A stretch of 63,584 nt of DNA, filler included, from Reticulomyxa filosa (lineage: Eukaryota > Protista > Foraminifera): assembly GCA_000512085.1 (NCBI GenBank). It is 14 parts of 14 records of this genome, joined end to end, with 100 filler letters (N's around TTAATTAATTAA, not from the genome) between each part and the next. Parts side by side here need not be neighbours in the genome. Positions count along the whole stretch, not along the records: positions 56,809 to 61,271 come from ASPP01043214.1; 13 more parts are not named here. One strand, given 5' to 3'. This document shows, piece by piece, positions 25,251 through 61,271 of this stretch (position 1 is the first letter of the stretch; each line of letters opens with the position of its first letter). Below the pieces are notes generated by a model. That model ran no database searches. It saw only the letters and a list, made by a program, of their open reading frames with translations, and was not told the origin of the DNA. The translations under genes and the position numbers were made by a program.

Positions 25251-26139
25251 TATGATTGATTTATGATCTTCTACAATCCGCAAATCGCCGCAACTATTTC
25301 CAGATTTATATATATTGCTTTCGAACCGTTGATTATTGGAATATAGATTCTATAATTTATAGTATGTTTTTATATTTGATTTTTTTAAACAAACATAAAA
25401 GAAAATTACTTAACTGGCGTTGCTATCCCACGCGGATATCATTTCTTCAAATATTTAAAAAAATTAAAATTAATTTATTGTTCTTTTCTTTTCTTTTTTT
25501 CTTCATTTATTATTTTTTCATTATAACCATTTATTTTTTTTCTTTTTTACATACTTTTTTCTTTTTTCTTTTTCATTTTTCCTTTTCTTTTTTTCTAAAC
25601 CTTTTTTTTTTTTCTTATTCATTATTCTATTTTTTTTTTATTGATATCTTTTTTTTTCTCATCCCTTTTTTTTTTGTTATTCCATTTCTTTTTTTTTATC
25701 AACTTTTTTTCTATCCACCTTTAATAATTATTTTCCCCCTTTTATCTAAATCCAACTTTTAAAAGATAAATACCTCCTGCTACGGTCTTGCTGCGCTGGA
25801 CATCTATACACAAACAAACTTAATTTATAATTATTTAAAGAACAACCAAAAAAATATACATATACATATGATAATTGGACATGCTTTCCACATTCTTTTT
25901 TTTTTCACTATGGAAATCACTTCACATTATTTTTTTTTTTTGATGGGGGGACAAATGAATATAAACATATATTTTTTTCTTTGGGGGAATTCCTATTGCT
26001 TCACAAACACAACAACATTATATAACAAAAGAATATATTATATAAATAAACATAGATATCACAAACTTTTCTTCATCCTCACGGAGACATAGTGGATTTC
26101 AACCCCATTTTTATTTTGTGTGGAGGGAAGTAGAATACA

Positions 26140-52462: not shown

Positions 52463-52586
52463 NNNNNNNNNNNNNNNNNNNNNNNNNNNNNNNNNNNNNN
52501 NNNNNNTTAATTAATTAANNNNNNNNNNNNNNNNNNNNNNNNNNNNNNNNNNNNNNNNNNNNCGATTGAGAATTTTTGGGAAAAAT

Positions 52587-53777
52587 GATGCAACGCAAAC
52601 AGATTCTGATTCTGACACCGAGATATCCTTATCCGGTAATAGGTGGTGACAGGCTGCGCATTTATGAAATTTGCAAGGAGCTTGCCAAGTATCACGACTT
52701 GTCGCTCTTGAGCTTGTGCGAGACTCAAGATGAACTGCATTCGGCATTGCCTGATGATGGCGTTTTCAAGCGTATTGAGCGCGTTTATTTGCCAAAGTGG
52801 CAATCATTGTTGAATGTTGCATTAGCCATACCGACTTCTACACCGCTACAGATTGCGTATTATCGCTCAAATGAATTTGCAAGAAAACTGGATGCGTTAG
52901 TGCCTGAGCATGATATGTTTTTTGCACACCTCATTCGAGCCGGAGAGTACCTTAGGGGGCGTGACATTCCTTCAGTTCTGGAAATGACTGATGCCATTTC
53001 GATGAATTATCAACGGATCAGTAAACTTTCCTCTAAAAGGAATTTCAAATCATGGGTTTTCCATTTTGAAGCAAATCGTTTGTTAAGTTATGAGCAGAAA
53101 ATTGTTGATGAATTTCCGCTTGTAACGTTAGTGTCTGATTTTGATCGTGATTTTCTATTGAATGGTAGAGTGCTGGATAACTTGCTTGTATGTTCAAATG
53201 GGGTTGATTTGAGCGCACTGCCCTTTAAGTCGCGAGAAGTAAGTGCTCCCATTGCTGCTTTTATTGGCAACATGACTTCTGTGCAAAATCTTGATGCATG
53301 TTTTTATTTTGCAGAAGAGGTTTTGCCTGTGATACGTCAGCGTTTGGATTGCCGGTTCCGGGTAGTGGGACGAATTAAACCAGGCGACGCAAAGCGGCTA
53401 GAAATGTTCGATTCTGTAGAAGTTGCGAGCAATGTGCACAGTATTGCTGACGCATTGGCTGATGCGCGGGTGGGGGTTGCACCGGTAAGATTGGGGGCTG
53501 GCGTCCAGAACAAGGTTCTTGAGTATATGGCACTCGGTTTGCCTGTAGTTACCTCTACCGTTGCTCTGGAAGGATTGCAGGCTATGCCGGAGCGTGATCT
53601 CTTAGTAGCTGACCGGCCTGAGGAGTATGCGGCGGCACTTTTTGCGGTTGTGGCAAGATGATACTCTGCGAGGTTCACTGGCGCAGGCAGGTTTGAAATA
53701 TGTAGAAGAGTACCATTCGTGGCATCAGCGCCTGATGCCTATGGGTAGAGCGAATTAACCGTATTCTCGCTGATTAA
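52587..53777 (+). CDS. Bacterial GT4 (glycosyltransferase group 1) surface-polysaccharide sugar transferase
   Basis: Intronless. Motifs LILTPRYPYPVIGGDRLR, FIGNM..QNLDA and VAPVRLGAGVQNKVLEYMALGLPVVTS (EX7E-type region). The C-terminus continues past homopolymer slips (T-run 53639-43, G-run ~53743) as LLRLWQDDTLRGSLAQAGLKYVEEYHSW..RILAD* to 53777. Confidence 0.92.
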
Positions 53778-53815
53778 TATATTGCGCATTTTTGAGAAAA
53801 ACCGCCAGCATTGCG

Positions 53816-53845
53816 AATGCCAGTCAGCGTTAACTGACTGGCATT
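53816..53845. terminator. Perfect 12-bp inverted repeat between convergent bacterial genes; probable terminator hairpin
   Basis: AATGCCAGTCAG-cgttaa-CTGACTGGCATT lies between the GT4 stop and the MarC stop. There is no clean adjacent U-tract. Confidence 0.55.
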
Positions 53846-53864
53846 ACCCCCTCGGGGCGATTTT

Positions 53865-53996
53865 TTACGCCAGTTTTTTGATGTAGGCAGCCACGCCGCC
53901 AAGCAGCATTTCAATGGAAATGGCGGTCAGTACCAGGCCCATCAGGCGTTCCAGCGCGGTGATGGCTTGTTCGCCCAGCGCGCGGTGGATCTTGCC
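53865..53996 (-). CDS. marC: MarC-family inner membrane protein, C-terminal fragment (bacterial)
   Basis: GKIHRALGEQAITALERLMGLVLTAISIEMLLGGVAAYIKKLA* matches the MarC C-terminal signature (R.MGL.L..I.VEM...G). Codons are GC-rich. Confidence 0.85.
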   Translation of the reverse strand, partial: GKIHRALGEQAITALERLMGLVLTAISIEMLLGGVAAYIKKLA

Positions 53997-56808: not shown

Positions 56809-58935
56809 CATGTCGTTGTTCAGTTTGGCCAATTGCTGACTTATTTCCATCAATATTTCTTTTATTTCTTCATTTATTGAGTCTTTTTTTGTATAGTTGA
56901 TGTTGAGTTTGTCTTCTTGGTTTATTCTAATGTATCCATCAAATTCTTTGTATTCTTGTTGTTTTTTTATTTTAATGTCTATTTTTCCTTGTACATCGTC
57001 GATCATTTTCTTTTGTAATGTAGTTTGCATTCTATGATATATTTGGTTGACTATCCAGTTGTATGTTTTAATATTGTTTCTATTAAGTTTCTTTTGAAGA
57101 TTTTGTAGTTTGATTGTAAGTGTCATGATTGATAAGCTAAGTTCTTTTACTAAGTATGTTATGTTTACTGTTGTAGTTGTGATCATTTGTTTCTCTTTTA
57201 TTATGTTCATTCTTTTGAGTATTTCTTTTCTTATATCTGGTGCAGTTATTTGTGCTGTTGGTATACTTATACCATAAAGTTTATTAGTTGTTTTTATTAT
57301 CAAGTTATATACATATATCATTTCACTAATGACTTTTTCGCTTGTTTTAATTATTTCTTTAGTATTATATTGAAATTTGTTATTAGTGTCTTCGTCTATT
57401 TCTATATTTTCTTTGTCATTTATCAGGTTTTTTATGATTTTGGCTGTTAGGTTAAGCGGTTTGCCCCATCTTTCTCTTTCATTTGTGTTAATTGCCAAAA
57501 TTTCACCAATTTCCCTGGGATCGTTAATGATGATGCCATTTCTTTCTTTCACATTCCATTTCACGATTTTTTCTAGATATTGATTTCTGTTAATATTTCC
57601 TTTTTGTAAATCATTTATTGTTTCTTCGTATTTTATGGTAAATTCTTCCATGAAATTTAGTAGTTCTTCTACTTTGTTGATTTCTTTGTCTGTTGTGATA
57701 TCTATTTCTACTTTGCTTTCTAGTTCTTTTGTTTTGTTTTCTGTTCTATTTTTATTATCAATTTGTTCTAATAGCATTTGGGATAGTTCTTTGGTATTTG
57801 GATCTTTGTTTTCAGTTTCTTCTACTACTTCTTGTAGCAATTGGTTGTATGTATTACTTTGTATGTCGTTTGATCCTTCAGTTGTTTGACCTTTATTAGT
57901 TATTCTTGATGTATTTGTGTTGTTGCTTCTTATTGGAATAGTAGTTGTGTTGTTACTGATCAGGTTTTGTTCTAGTCTTTGTTTTCTTTGTATTTCACTC
58001 CTTATTTTCTGGAGTTCATGACTTCTTTTTTGTTTTCTAAGTTGTGATATTTGTTCTGTTTTCTTGTTTTTAATCGTATTTAGCCAGTTTTGGTTTTGGA
58101 ATTCTCTGTTTTCTTTTAATTGGACTAACCTAATGTTGTTATTTCTGATGTTTGAAGTGACCTTTAGTTGCTCTTGATGATTATATTTTCTGCTTTCCAT
58201 TAATGTATTAATTTTGGTTTCTGATATTCTATACCATATCTCCATTTCTTCGTTATTTTTCTTTTCTTTGATAATTTTAATAACTTTCCTGTCTTGAATT
58301 ATTTTGTCTAAGTTTATTTTTTCTTCTAGGAATTTTTTTATGTGAATTACGATAATTTTATATGTAATTCCTGTTATGGTTGATATAAGTATATTACCCC
58401 AATTTTTTGCAATTTCTTTTAGCCAGTTTTGTTTGACTGATACAATGACTTTTCTGTTGTTATTATCTATAGTTAGATTTAGCCCTTGTGTTTCTTTCAG
58501 CCATTTGATACTTAATTCTTTTCCTTGTATGTCTGTGACCCTGTTTGTTTTGAATGTTTCATTTTCATTATTTTTTATTTCCCATGCTTCGTTCCATTCT
58601 ATGTCTTGTATTTTTATTGTCATTCCTATTTTTTGCTTGCTGGCTTTTTCTGCGAAAATGATTTTCTCGGATTCTATTTCTATATCATTGTTCTGTTGGC
58701 TAGTGTTTTTCCTGGAGTCGTTTTTTCTGGAGTCATTTTTTCTAGTAGATTGGTCTGTGTTTTCGGAGTCGTTTTTACTGGTAGACTGGTCTACATTTTT
58801 TCCAGAGTTACTTTTTGTATGATTATCTCCTGTTTTTTTATCATTATTATTAATAATGTCTGTTGTTTGGTTTTGTTTTTTTTTAGTTTGTTGTTCTGTA
58901 GATATTGGTATGTCTTGTCTTGTATTTTCTGTCAT
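56809..58935 (-). mobile_element. Penelope-like retroelement ORF, long N-terminal region running into the RT (3' truncated by the contig end)
   Basis: Intronless, strongly A-rich coding strand, more than 700 aa and K/N/I/E-rich. KLYGISIPT (~57257-57283) resembles the PLE L.KGL.F.PT motif. YIRINQEDKLN (~56902-56934) resembles the I.I..ADKG motif that precedes PLE RT cores. Confidence 0.5.
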
Positions 58936-59633
58936 TTCTTAATTTTTACTAGTTAAAAAATTTTTTTCCCGAAAAGATTTTTTCTTTTTCTTGCTAGTTG
59001 AGTTTTTTGTGTAATAGGTTTTCTTCTTTGCAGTATTACTATCGTCCTGTTCAAGTTTAAAACGTATTAATGTGGAAAACCTTTATTACACTTTGTGGTT
59101 TTATAAAAATAACTTACGCAAAATCGCACTTAAGGTAAAAGGTTAGTAAAAAAATTAAGTAAGTTTAAAAAGAGTTATTTTTTGTTTAATTCCCCTTGAA
59201 CTTCTGTTTTTAGTTTTTTCAGTTCTTAAGTCCTTTTTTCGTATTTTTCTGTAAATTCTTTCGCTTTATTTATCAATGTTAATGATTTGTAATCGATTTT
59301 CCCGTCTTGATCTGTGATGCCTAACTATAGTTTTCTTTTTGCTAATCAGTATTGTGTTTTATTTTGGTTTAGCTATTTTAATACTTTATTAGTTTCTTTA
59401 TTTGAACTTTATTTGTTAAGTTTGGGTAATCCCTTGTTTTATTTAGATTTTATAAGTTCAGTTTTATGTTCAGTTTTAGTTTTTGTGTTTGTGTTTGTGT
59501 TTTGTTGTGATAACCATTTTGTTTGTTTGTTGTTACTGTTGGATTGTGCTTTTTTTGTGATTATTATTTATTTTTATGTTAAAATACTTTAACCAATTAT
59601 TGTTAAGTACTTTTATTTGTATATGTTTTTCGT

Positions 59634-59740
59634 TTTTGGTGTTCATTAATTTCGTTTCTGGGTATGCGTATTATTTTTGTGTTCACTAGTTTCGTTTCTA
59701 AGTATATGTGTTTTTGGTGTTCACTAGTTTCGTTTTGGGC
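59634..59740. repeat. Three imperfect tandem copies of a ~39-bp unit (core GTGTTCACTAGTTTCGTTT)
   Basis: Cores start at 59639, 59679 and 59717. Confidence 0.85.
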
Positions 59741-59749
59741 ATATTATTT

Positions 59750-60900
59750 ATATGTTTAATGTGATTTGTCTACTTGAGTTTATTCAACTTATAATTCTAT
59801 ATATGTTGTGTATTCATTTGTTGATTCATTTTATCTTTGTTTTTAATATTTTATTTATTCTTCTTCTTCGTCTTTAGTATCATATTCTTATGTTATGTTA
59901 TATTTTACTTATATTCTAGGTAATGTTTCCCATTATTTCTTCTGTTCTTTCTTTCTTTTTCTTGTATTCTTCAGTATCCATGTTGATATATTCAAAATTT
60001 TTTCCTACTATTTCCTTTTTGTATCCGCATTTAATAAATTCTTTAATTACGTTGATTATTTCAATGTCGTAAATATTTTTATTTGGGGTTAATCTGATCA
60101 ATATGTCTCTTATTATAGTAATCACTTGTGATTTCCATTTCCTTACACCTGATGTTCCTGGATTAGCATATCTTTGTACAATGTCTGTTTTTAGTTTGAT
60201 GTACTATGTGAAATCATTTTTTTCTAGATTTTTTTTTTGATTTCTTCTTATGTTTGCTACATTTTGTAGTTTTGTCTTTATATTATTGATTTCTTCATTT
60301 TCTTTTTTTAAGTTGTTTTGTATTTCTTTAATGTATTCTCTTATTTATTCTATTCTTTCCTTTATTGTCCCTTGCAGTTCTTTGTATGTTTCATTTGTTA
60401 GTCTGAAGTTGGGTCTAAGTAAGTTTGAGTATTCATCGGTTTCTTCTTTATTTTCTTGATTAATTCAGTTTAGTTCCCTTTTTAATTCTTTGCTTTTATT
60501 CTTTTGTGAATTATCTCATTTTTACCATTTTTATTTGATATGGAAAGCCATGTGAGTTGACTTAGTTTCACGTTTTGTTTATTTCATCATTTAGTTTTTC
60601 TATTGTATTAAGATCATTATGACTTAATTCTGCTTTGTATTTCCTGTTTTTATTTTTATTTCTAGTTTACCATTTTTTAATTCTAACGTTCTATCATTAC
60701 CATATTGTCCGTAATTATCTGTTTCAATTGTGAGATCAATATATTTTGTAATGTGCTTTCATTAATTTCTAATTCACAGTTTCAATATATTTGTTCTAAA
60801 TCTTCTTTTATAAATTTGTCAATTCAATATGTTTCTTTTTGTTTGTTTTTGTCAAAAAAAATTCATCTCAATTATTTTTATTTCATCCCTCTGATCTATT
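59750..60900 (-). mobile_element. Decayed upstream Penelope-like RT copy (thumb/C-terminal region), no endonuclease visible
   Basis: DFT*YIKLKTDIVQRYANPGTSGVRKWKSQVITIIRDILIRLTP..EIINVIKEFIKCGYKKEIV resembles the PLE post-RT pattern Y.K.T....Y....S.HP...K......R..........E...I...L..NGY...I. It has the same A-skew as the downstream ORF and many stops. Confidence 0.55.
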
Positions 60901-60919
60901 TGAGAATTTTTAAAAAAAA

Positions 60920-61271
60920 ATGAGCGCCGAGACCATGCATCGATTGGTGTTATTGGCCCGAGCGAAAGCGAAAAAGAAGCAAGAGCAGCATAGTCGAACG
61001 CGCTCAGGTACTCGTGGGCATATACGTGCAGGTTCGAAGCAGCTATATCGAACGAAGACGATAACGAATGTGAACGACGGTGCTCCAAATGCGAACGAGG
61101 ACATGGCAGCAGAAAGAAAAGTGGCAAAGCGATTAATAGCGACTCACAAAGTGACAGAAGTGCCGCCATTGCAAGTGCGGAGTTTTTCACTTCCTCATCC
61201 GGGGTCTCCTTACGATAATGACACCGACACTGACAATGACAACAACAGTGCCGATGGTAACAAACCGAAAA
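60920..61271 (+). CDS. Fragment of a host protein exon (basic/low-complexity)
   Basis: Open frame of higher GC than the adjacent retroelement DNA, running to the contig end. Confidence 0.4.

What the first reader, a model, noticed from the sequence alone, without database searches (positions are those of the whole stretch)
56809..60900. Tandem, apparently endonuclease-less and highly divergent Penelope-like retroelement with a >700-aa N-terminal extension
Seen: a 4-kb intronless block with extreme A-skew on the minus strand. It holds a decayed frame with a PLE-type post-RT thumb pattern (YIKLKTD..RYANP..R..E..IKCGY), then about 800 nt of spacer with a short repeat array, then an intact ORF. 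The last ~200 aa of that ORF contain analogues of the PLE pre-RT motifs (KLYGISIPT, IRINQEDKL) just before the contig ends. No GIY-YIG follows the thumb. Known: endonuclease-deficient PLEs (Athena/Coprina type) form head-to-tail arrays at telomeres and are the closest retroelement relatives of telomerase RT. Inference: this may be an undescribed rhizarian/foraminiferan EN-minus PLE lineage, possibly involved in chromosome-end maintenance or healing.
Basis: partly seen in the sequence, partly recalled or inferred. Interest (0 to 1): 0.78.

Follow-up and report, generated by a model that had tools for sequence, protein, structure and literature searches.

The report
Divergent Penelope-like retroelement lacking tail nuclease
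This short contig from the foraminifer Reticulomyxa holds the broken tail of what is likely a very divergent Penelope-like jumping gene, whose frame stops before any DNA-cutting domain, followed by an intact long gene that may be the start of the next copy; nothing found here ties it to chromosome ends.

Summary
The block is real: a 4.1-kb A-rich minus strand on a 4,463-bp Reticulomyxa filosa contig. The upstream decayed frame has two paralogues in this genome and no other hit among 1.84 billion proteins. Their joint profile matches a Penelope-like (PLE) reverse-transcriptase thumb profile built here (HHalign probability 81, P 1e-5, 0 of 100 shuffles); a Lon-lid rival fell to chance. Read across two frameshifts, the window copy stops at the same codon as paralogue RFI_30303, about 90 residues after the thumb, so no C-terminal GIY-YIG is fused.

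The downstream ORF is 709 aa (not 724), intact, cut by the contig end and without relatives. Its claimed pre-RT motifs scored at chance, so its link to the RT is unproven, and no RT core was seen. No hammerhead or telomere-like repeat was found. Host-type DNA and the more decayed copy both lie on the 5' side, opposite to what addition at chromosome ends predicts.

Verdict: likely a new, very divergent rhizarian PLE family without a tail nuclease; 'endonuclease-less' is open and 'telomeric' is unsupported.

The parts
60912..61271 (+). Host-type flank, without the A-skew, on the 5' side of the element; plus-strand frame open from an ATG at 60920 to the contig end
   Evidence: Composition change-point at about 60911; base composition; ORF; no Pfam hit. 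Being a host exon is inferred.
60495..60911 (-). Heavily broken 5' part of the upstream copy; position would fit the end of an RT core, but motifs C-E are not recognisable
   Evidence: A codon model favours short coding stretches in changing frames at 60851-60731; the match to a 51-sequence PLE C-E profile is at chance.
60219..60494 (-). Decayed in-frame helical, coiled-coil-like stretch directly before the thumb
   Evidence: Same frame as the thumb, 2 internal stops; coding signal of 10-16 bits per 40 codons; only weak coiled-coil Pfam hits, E 0.02.
59975..60218 (-). PLE-type reverse-transcriptase thumb (decayed; one stop at its start)
   Evidence: Paralogues RFI_26414 and RFI_30303, 59/80 and 56/82 identical; HHalign to PLE thumb profiles P 3e-4 (2 sequences, 0 of 300 shuffles) and P 1.2e-5 (3 sequences, 0 of 100).
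59748..59974 (-). C-terminal extension after the thumb, broken by two frameshifts (near 59947 and 59861) and several stops; terminal TAA at 59750-59748
   Evidence: 59947-59861 and 59861-59760 match consecutive parts of RFI_30303 in two frames (0 of 1000 shuffles each); both end three residues after RQIT.
59632..59735 (-). Three ~39-nt repeats just behind the stop, each with a palindromic hexamer; not a hammerhead by the tests run
   Evidence: no Rfam ribozyme; no CUGANGA core with a stem II; folding z -1.7.
58936..59747 (-). 812-nt A-rich spacer, likely the 3' UTR of the upstream copy plus the 5' leader of the ORF
   Evidence: Stops at chance level in all frames; no clear coding frame; GIY-YIG profile at chance after composition correction.
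56809..58935 (-). Intact 709-aa ORF (RFI_37775), no cysteine, cut by the contig end; likely the 5' part of a mobile-element unit; link to the RT unproven
   Evidence: only itself found; no Pfam, NCBIfam, PHROG, PDB or Atlas match; PLE N-terminal, RT and GIY-YIG profiles at chance.

Best explanation
The upstream 1.2 kb is likely the 5'-truncated, decayed tail of a very divergent Penelope-like retroelement family of Reticulomyxa whose frame stops after the RT thumb with no nuclease behind it, and the intact 709-aa ORF is probably the 5' part of the next unit of the same kind of element. Shown: the repeated thumb-and-tail family, its shared stop codon, the intact ORF, and host-type DNA on the 5' side. 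Inferred mechanism: the element's RNA would be copied into DNA by its own RT, primed from a free 3'-OH inside a chromosome (a break, or a nick made by a nuclease supplied in trans or encoded further 5'). Copying that stops early would leave the truncated tail, and a tail in front of a fuller copy is the usual PLE partial tandem, in which the upstream piece would act as a non-coding promoter region. The ORF is younger than the tail or kept open by selection.
For: Family profile versus PLE thumb plus extension: probability 81, P 1.2e-5, score 37.0 against 11.1 +/- 2.1, 0 of 100 shuffles. It holds when the columns used to fish the reference set are removed (P 1.4e-4, 0 of 100) and in a frameshift-aware DNA alignment (19.1 against 11.3 +/- 1.3, 0 of 40). 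The motif is repeated on three contigs at 68-74% identity. The same terminal codon occurs in two copies. The A-skew runs through tail, spacer and ORF apart from a short T-rich patch at 59200-59050, and a codon model trained on the ORF scores the decayed frame at 6-17 bits per 40 codons against 11-27 for held-out ORF windows. 5' truncation and partial tandems are typical of PLE insertions (PMC8557442).
Against: No RT catalytic core was seen anywhere: motifs C-E upstream are at chance. The ORF matches no PLE profile and has no relative. Tail and ORF differ in decay (3 stops in 193 codons against 0 in 709; Fisher P 0.01), which a single insertion event does not predict. No hammerhead was found. 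The extension alone did not match the canonical profile (P 0.26-0.28). The third copy, RFI_26414, ends earlier. RFI_30303 is a predicted gene whose DNA I could not read. The thumb was compared only with PLE and Lon-lid profiles, not with telomerase or other RT thumbs.
Confidence: 0.55

Rival explanations
1. The tail is a PLE remnant, but the 709-aa ORF is unrelated: a separate, younger A-rich mobile element or a single-copy gene that sits behind it.
For: Different decay; no sequence or motif link to a PLE; no second copy of the ORF found while the tail has two; a possible link through the N-terminal part of RFI_26414 was not significant (P 0.12-0.53).
Against: Same strand, same extreme skew and shared codon pattern. 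The ORF searches covered only 389-1241 aa and, for residues 470-709, 30-388 aa; no HMMER search was run with the ORF.
Confidence: 0.22
2. The family is a nuclease-bearing PLE with the GIY-YIG placed elsewhere (N-terminal as in Naiad/Chlamys, in a separate ORF, or decayed in the spacer).
For: Naiad/Chlamys end after the RT and were first mistaken for EN-minus elements (PMC8557442). An internal position is what a nuclease allows. One segment at 59303, in the thumb's frame, was the top of 122,875 window positions for the C-terminal half of a GIY-YIG profile.
Against: That segment fell to chance after composition correction (9.9 against 11.0 +/- 1.4; 29 of 40 nulls as high) and lies behind the shared stop. 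The ORF has no GIY-YIG-like word, no cysteine and so no CxC motif.
Confidence: 0.1
3. One reading: an Athena/Coprina-like EN-minus element added head-to-tail at chromosome ends.
For: No C-terminal nuclease; co-oriented tail and ORF; host genes can be captured between telomeric units and arrays can be internalised (PMC6431247); foraminiferan telomeres are undescribed (PMC13746701), so the repeat test is weak.
Against: These elements attach by their 3' ends (PMC6431247), so the chromosome body and the older copy should lie 3' (inference). Here host-type DNA and the more decayed copy lie 5'. No hammerhead, and no tandem of any of 11 telomere-type units.
Confidence: 0.08
4. The motif is not an RT thumb but another small helical domain, such as a Lon-type AAA+ lid, in a decayed repeated gene.
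For: ESM Atlas feature hits to Lon_lid at 0.90-0.91, with recognition below the reliability line; two-sequence profile versus Lon lid P 0.013, 1 of 100 shuffles.
Against: With the third copy the Lon-lid match fell to chance (24 of 100 shuffles) while the PLE match rose; no Pfam hit.
Confidence: 0.05

Closest known systems
EN-minus Penelope-like elements, Athena and Coprina clades (PMC8557442 introduction and passages; PMC6431247 section 8)
   Same: PLE-type thumb with no C-terminal GIY-YIG; 5'-truncated piece followed by a co-oriented long ORF.
   Different: No hammerhead and no telomeric-repeat stretch found; 5' side joins host-type DNA; no RT core seen; no verified Athena or Coprina sequence was in my reference set.
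Naiad/Chlamys N-terminal-EN PLEs, including EN-less PLE-X and Chlamys-1_pPol (PMC8557442 parts 1-2 and section 9)
   Same: Frame ends after the RT; canonical hammerheads mostly absent; non-telomeric; an insertion between RT motif E and the thumb is known in Chlamys-1_pPol.
   Different: The adjacent ORF has no cysteine, hence no CxC motif, and no GIY-YIG-like segment; the pre-thumb stretch here is coiled-coil-like, not a recognised SAP domain.
Canonical C-terminal-EN PLEs (Penelope/Poseidon, Neptune, Nematis); the type of most long reference ORFs fetched here
   Same: Thumb aligns without gaps over 63-66 columns; A-rich sense strand.
   Different: Stop about 90 residues after the thumb with no nuclease; YRKPT-type motif altered; skew about 0.45 against -0.02 to 0.39 in 20 reference ORFs; not found by HMMER from this family.

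Membership tests
Penelope-like elements | PLE-type RT thumb | tested here: met
   HHalign probability 81, P 1.2e-5, 0 of 100 shuffles; holds without seed columns. Not compared with telomerase or other RT thumbs.
Penelope-like elements | RT core (motifs 1-7) grouping with PLE/TERT | not testable with these tools
Penelope-like elements | N-terminal GxKF/Y and DKG motifs in the downstream ORF | tested here: inconclusive
   At chance against a 22-sequence profile; the profile is mostly canonical and may miss so divergent a family.
Penelope-like elements | 5' truncation and partial tandem (pseudo-LTR) | tested here: inconclusive
   The layout fits, but the second copy's tail is beyond the contig end, so no direct repeat can be shown.
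Penelope-like elements | Hammerhead ribozyme near the 3' end | tested here: not met
   Rfam scan and relaxed core search negative; canonical hammerheads are also absent from Naiads (PMC8557442), and this copy is decayed.
C-terminal EN+ PLEs (Penelope/Poseidon, Neptune, Nematis, Hydra) | GIY-YIG fused behind the thumb | tested here: not met
   Same stop codon in the window copy and RFI_30303; spacer at chance against a 52-sequence GIY-YIG profile.
Naiad/Chlamys | N-terminal GIY-YIG and CxC motif | tested here: inconclusive
   Absent from the 709-aa ORF, but that ORF is not proven to be the family's N-terminus.
Athena/Coprina (telomeric EN-minus) | No endonuclease anywhere in the unit | tested here: inconclusive
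   None in 4.1 kb; no complete unit available.
Athena/Coprina (telomeric EN-minus) | Reverse-complement telomeric repeats at the 3' end | tested here: inconclusive
   No tandem of 11 units tried; the host's telomere repeat is undescribed (PMC13746701).
Athena/Coprina (telomeric EN-minus) | Terminal position with the 3' end towards the chromosome body | tested here: inconclusive
   Host-type DNA and the older copy lie 5', opposite to the prediction, but the 3' flank is not in the contig.
Lon protease AAA+ lid | Match to the lid profile | tested here: not met
   24 of 100 shuffles score as high.

The most novel reading that the evidence does not exclude
Reticulomyxa carries its own deep-branching, truly nuclease-free PLE lineage with a >700-aa cysteine-free N-terminal arm and an insertion before the thumb, which spreads to internal chromosomal sites without a nuclease, hammerhead or telomeric repeats: a break-primed relative of telomerase in a supergroup where I found no PLE described.
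Probability: 0.3. Interest if true: 0.7.

Novelty: new variant of a known kind. Interest (0 to 1): 0.5.

Why it matters
PLE reverse transcriptases are the sister group of telomerase, and the order in which nuclease-free and nuclease-bearing forms arose is unsettled (PMC8557442, passages). I found no PLE described from Rhizaria. A family too divergent for HMMER to link to any protein outside this genome would add a new branch. If it is nuclease-free yet internal, it would offer a case for asking how such elements obtain a primer. The present evidence is one domain on short contigs, so the value lies in pointing to three contigs that can be checked quickly.

Tried and rejected
No sequencing run was listed, which is no evidence on expression. 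Pfam, NCBIfam, PHROGs and PDB sequence searches gave nothing significant for the ORF, the thumb or the stop-read-through frames. This Pfam copy also gave no thumb family on 6 of 6 reference PLEs and RVT_1 on only 3 of 6, so the blank is uninformative. No relative was found in viral, metagenome or prokaryote contigs or in phages. AlphaFold models were poor (pLDDT 36 for ORF residues 346-709; 52 for the thumb family). Fold searches gave no usable match and listed no RT thumb (best E 4.7, best Z 5.1). The Atlas gave no usable hit for ORF 400-709. Rejected after tests: the Lon lid; a decayed GIY-YIG at 59303; a link between the N-terminal part of RFI_26414/RFI_13628 and the ORF; a thumb-like score at 25775, which is low-complexity DNA; a hammerhead in the 39-nt array. 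A PLE pattern scan of viral contigs was empty. Five look-ups of earlier findings by sequence, place or words were empty or, for RFI_30303, empty as well. The single HMMER job went to the thumb alignment, so the ORF had only word-based searches, and proteins over 1241 aa were not searched for it.
Full report
Setting. The window is a string of short contigs joined by N linkers; the finding lies on one of 4,463 bp, 56809-61271. The long ORF is annotated as RFI_37775, partial, of Reticulomyxa filosa, on a contig of the same length. No whole genome was held and no sequencing run was listed, so copy number and flanks could be approached only through annotated proteins.

Observation. The minus strand of 56809-60900 is 53% A and 20% T, the strongest skew in the window, with a change-point at about 60911. 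Beyond it lie 360 bp of unskewed, host-type DNA with a plus-strand frame. The upstream frame 60494-59916 has 3 internal stops in 193 codons. Three ~39-nt repeats lie at 59632-59735.

The upstream piece is a repeated family. A word search found RFI_26414. HMMER with a two-sequence profile over 1,835,955,588 proteins returned 3 hits, all R. filosa: RFI_26414 itself, RFI_30303 (thumb plus tail) and RFI_13628, which matches only the N-terminal part of RFI_26414 and not the window. The three thumb copies are 68-74% identical (59/80, 56/82, 55/80).

It is most likely a PLE thumb. This Pfam copy has no model that hits PLE thumbs, so I built references. A degenerate pattern recalled from the PLE thumb fetched 120 metagenome loci, in which 116 motif-bearing frames were found; 3 of 6 full-length ones tested hit RVT_1. 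Distinct frames long enough for each region gave profiles of 55 (thumb), 20 (thumb plus extension), 51 (motifs C-E) and 18 (RT) sequences; iterative searches of the same loci gave 22 (N-terminal) and 52 (GIY-YIG). The set is mostly the canonical C-terminal-nuclease type and holds no verified Athena, Coprina or Naiad. The two-sequence alignment matched the thumb over 63 gapless columns (P 3e-4; 0 of 300 shuffles). With RFI_30303 the match rose to probability 81, P 1.2e-5, score 37.0 against 11.1 +/- 2.1 (0 of 100), and it stayed at P 1.4e-4 without the columns used for fishing. A Lon-lid lead from the Atlas was tested with 51 lid sequences from 65 loci: P 0.013 with two sequences, chance with three (24 of 100). 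Telomerase and other RT thumbs were not compared, and both fold searches were uninformative because the model was poor.

No C-terminal nuclease. RFI_30303 continues past the point where the window frame breaks. Its tail matches 59947-59861 in one frame and 59861-59760 in the thumb's frame (0 of 1000 shuffles each), and both copies stop three residues after RQIT, at 59750-59748 in the window. The 812-nt spacer scored at chance against the GIY-YIG profile once composition was corrected; an uncorrected scan had put one segment at 59303 first of 122,875 positions, which I treat as unconfirmed. Caveats: RFI_30303 is a gene model, RFI_26414 ends earlier, and the extension alone did not match the canonical profile.

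The long ORF is unexplained. It found only itself among 7,996 scored candidates of 389-1241 aa, and residues 470-709 found none of 937 shorter candidates. Family libraries, PDB, phages and the Atlas gave nothing. The claimed pre-RT words rank 506 of 684 and 8-11 of about 680 within the ORF and score below every shuffled maximum. By eye the last 40 residues resemble the DKG region, but the tests do not support it. It has no cysteine and no GIY-YIG-like word. What ties it to the tail is indirect: same strand, same skew, and a codon model trained on the ORF that scores the decayed frame at 6-17 bits per 40 codons against 11-27 for held-out ORF windows. Against a single insertion, tail and ORF differ in decay (Fisher P 0.01).

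Mechanism. Inferred from PLE biology (PMC8557442): target-primed reverse transcription, frequent 5' truncation, and partial tandems in which an upstream piece precedes a fuller copy. With no nuclease in view, priming would use an existing break or a nuclease supplied in trans or encoded elsewhere in the unit. My odds: tail is a PLE about 0.85; ORF belongs to the same kind of unit about 0.6; whole reading 0.55; truly nuclease-free about 0.35; telomeric about 0.08. Telomeric EN-minus PLEs attach by the 3' end (PMC6431247), so by inference the chromosome body and the older copy should lie 3'; here both lie 5'. The same review notes captured host genes and internalised arrays, so this argues against the model without excluding it. 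No hammerhead and no tandem of 11 telomere-type units were found, but foraminiferan telomeres are undescribed (PMC13746701).

Literature seen. PMC8557442: parts 1-2 of 10, section 9, passages, and a term search of the one supplementary file held (figures; no 'reticulomyxa', 'foramin' or 'rhizar'); its family tables were not held and may bear on novelty. PMC4209133: parts 1-2 of 4. PMC6431247: section 8 and passages. PMC13746701, PMC12477816, PMC13421374, PMC5408684 and bioRxiv 10.1101/2022.12.15.520654: passages. The R. filosa genome paper and the 2007 and 2017 papers on telomeric PLEs were not held. The listings, and the passages read from four of the listed papers, showed no description of a PLE in Rhizaria; the other listed papers were seen as listings only. 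PMC12477816 states that PLEs had not been reported in TSAR before Ectocarpus, although PMC4209133 shows a hammerhead variant from the diatom Thalassiosira oceanica in its figure on protist retroelements. Unchecked earlier notes of this scan report nuclease-bearing divergent PLEs in a foraminifer-like genome; they are leads only.

Verdict. A real, likely new and very divergent PLE family without a tail nuclease; the long ORF's role, the absence of any nuclease and a telomere link are not established. Novelty: new variant of a known kind. Interest 0.5.

Noticed in passing
window 52563-53996: A separate 1.4-kb contig of higher GC with a bacterial-type glycosyltransferase (TIGR03087, E 6e-55, below its cut-off); likely a bacterial contaminant, possibly a transfer.
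   Followed up: partly
window 59632-59735: Each repeat holds GAA plus a palindromic hexamer; in the third copy both changed positions keep the palindrome, and copies 1 and 2 pair through it in the predicted fold. It resembles half of a minimal hammerhead, but the CUGANGA strand is missing.
   Followed up: partly
window 57225-57272: The public model RFI_37775 removes this 48-nt in-frame stretch as an intron, and the aligned RFI_26414 lacks 9 thumb residues present in the other two copies; both may be false introns.
   Followed up: no
proteins P0004 and P0006: RFI_26414's N-terminal part and RFI_13628 form a second small R. filosa family (E 2e-16) with no match in this window; it may be another part of the element or a chimeric gene model.
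   Followed up: partly
window 59200-59050: A T-rich patch interrupts the A-rich strand about 150 nt before the ORF's ATG; it could be a promoter or a short leader intron.
   Followed up: no
window 59330-59170: About 50 codons with one stop in the thumb's frame, weakly like the second half of a GIY-YIG domain; not significant after composition correction.
   Followed up: yes
L032:128-2368: A 747-aa reference PLE frame with DKG and the thumb motif but no YIG word; possibly a different PLE type.
   Followed up: no
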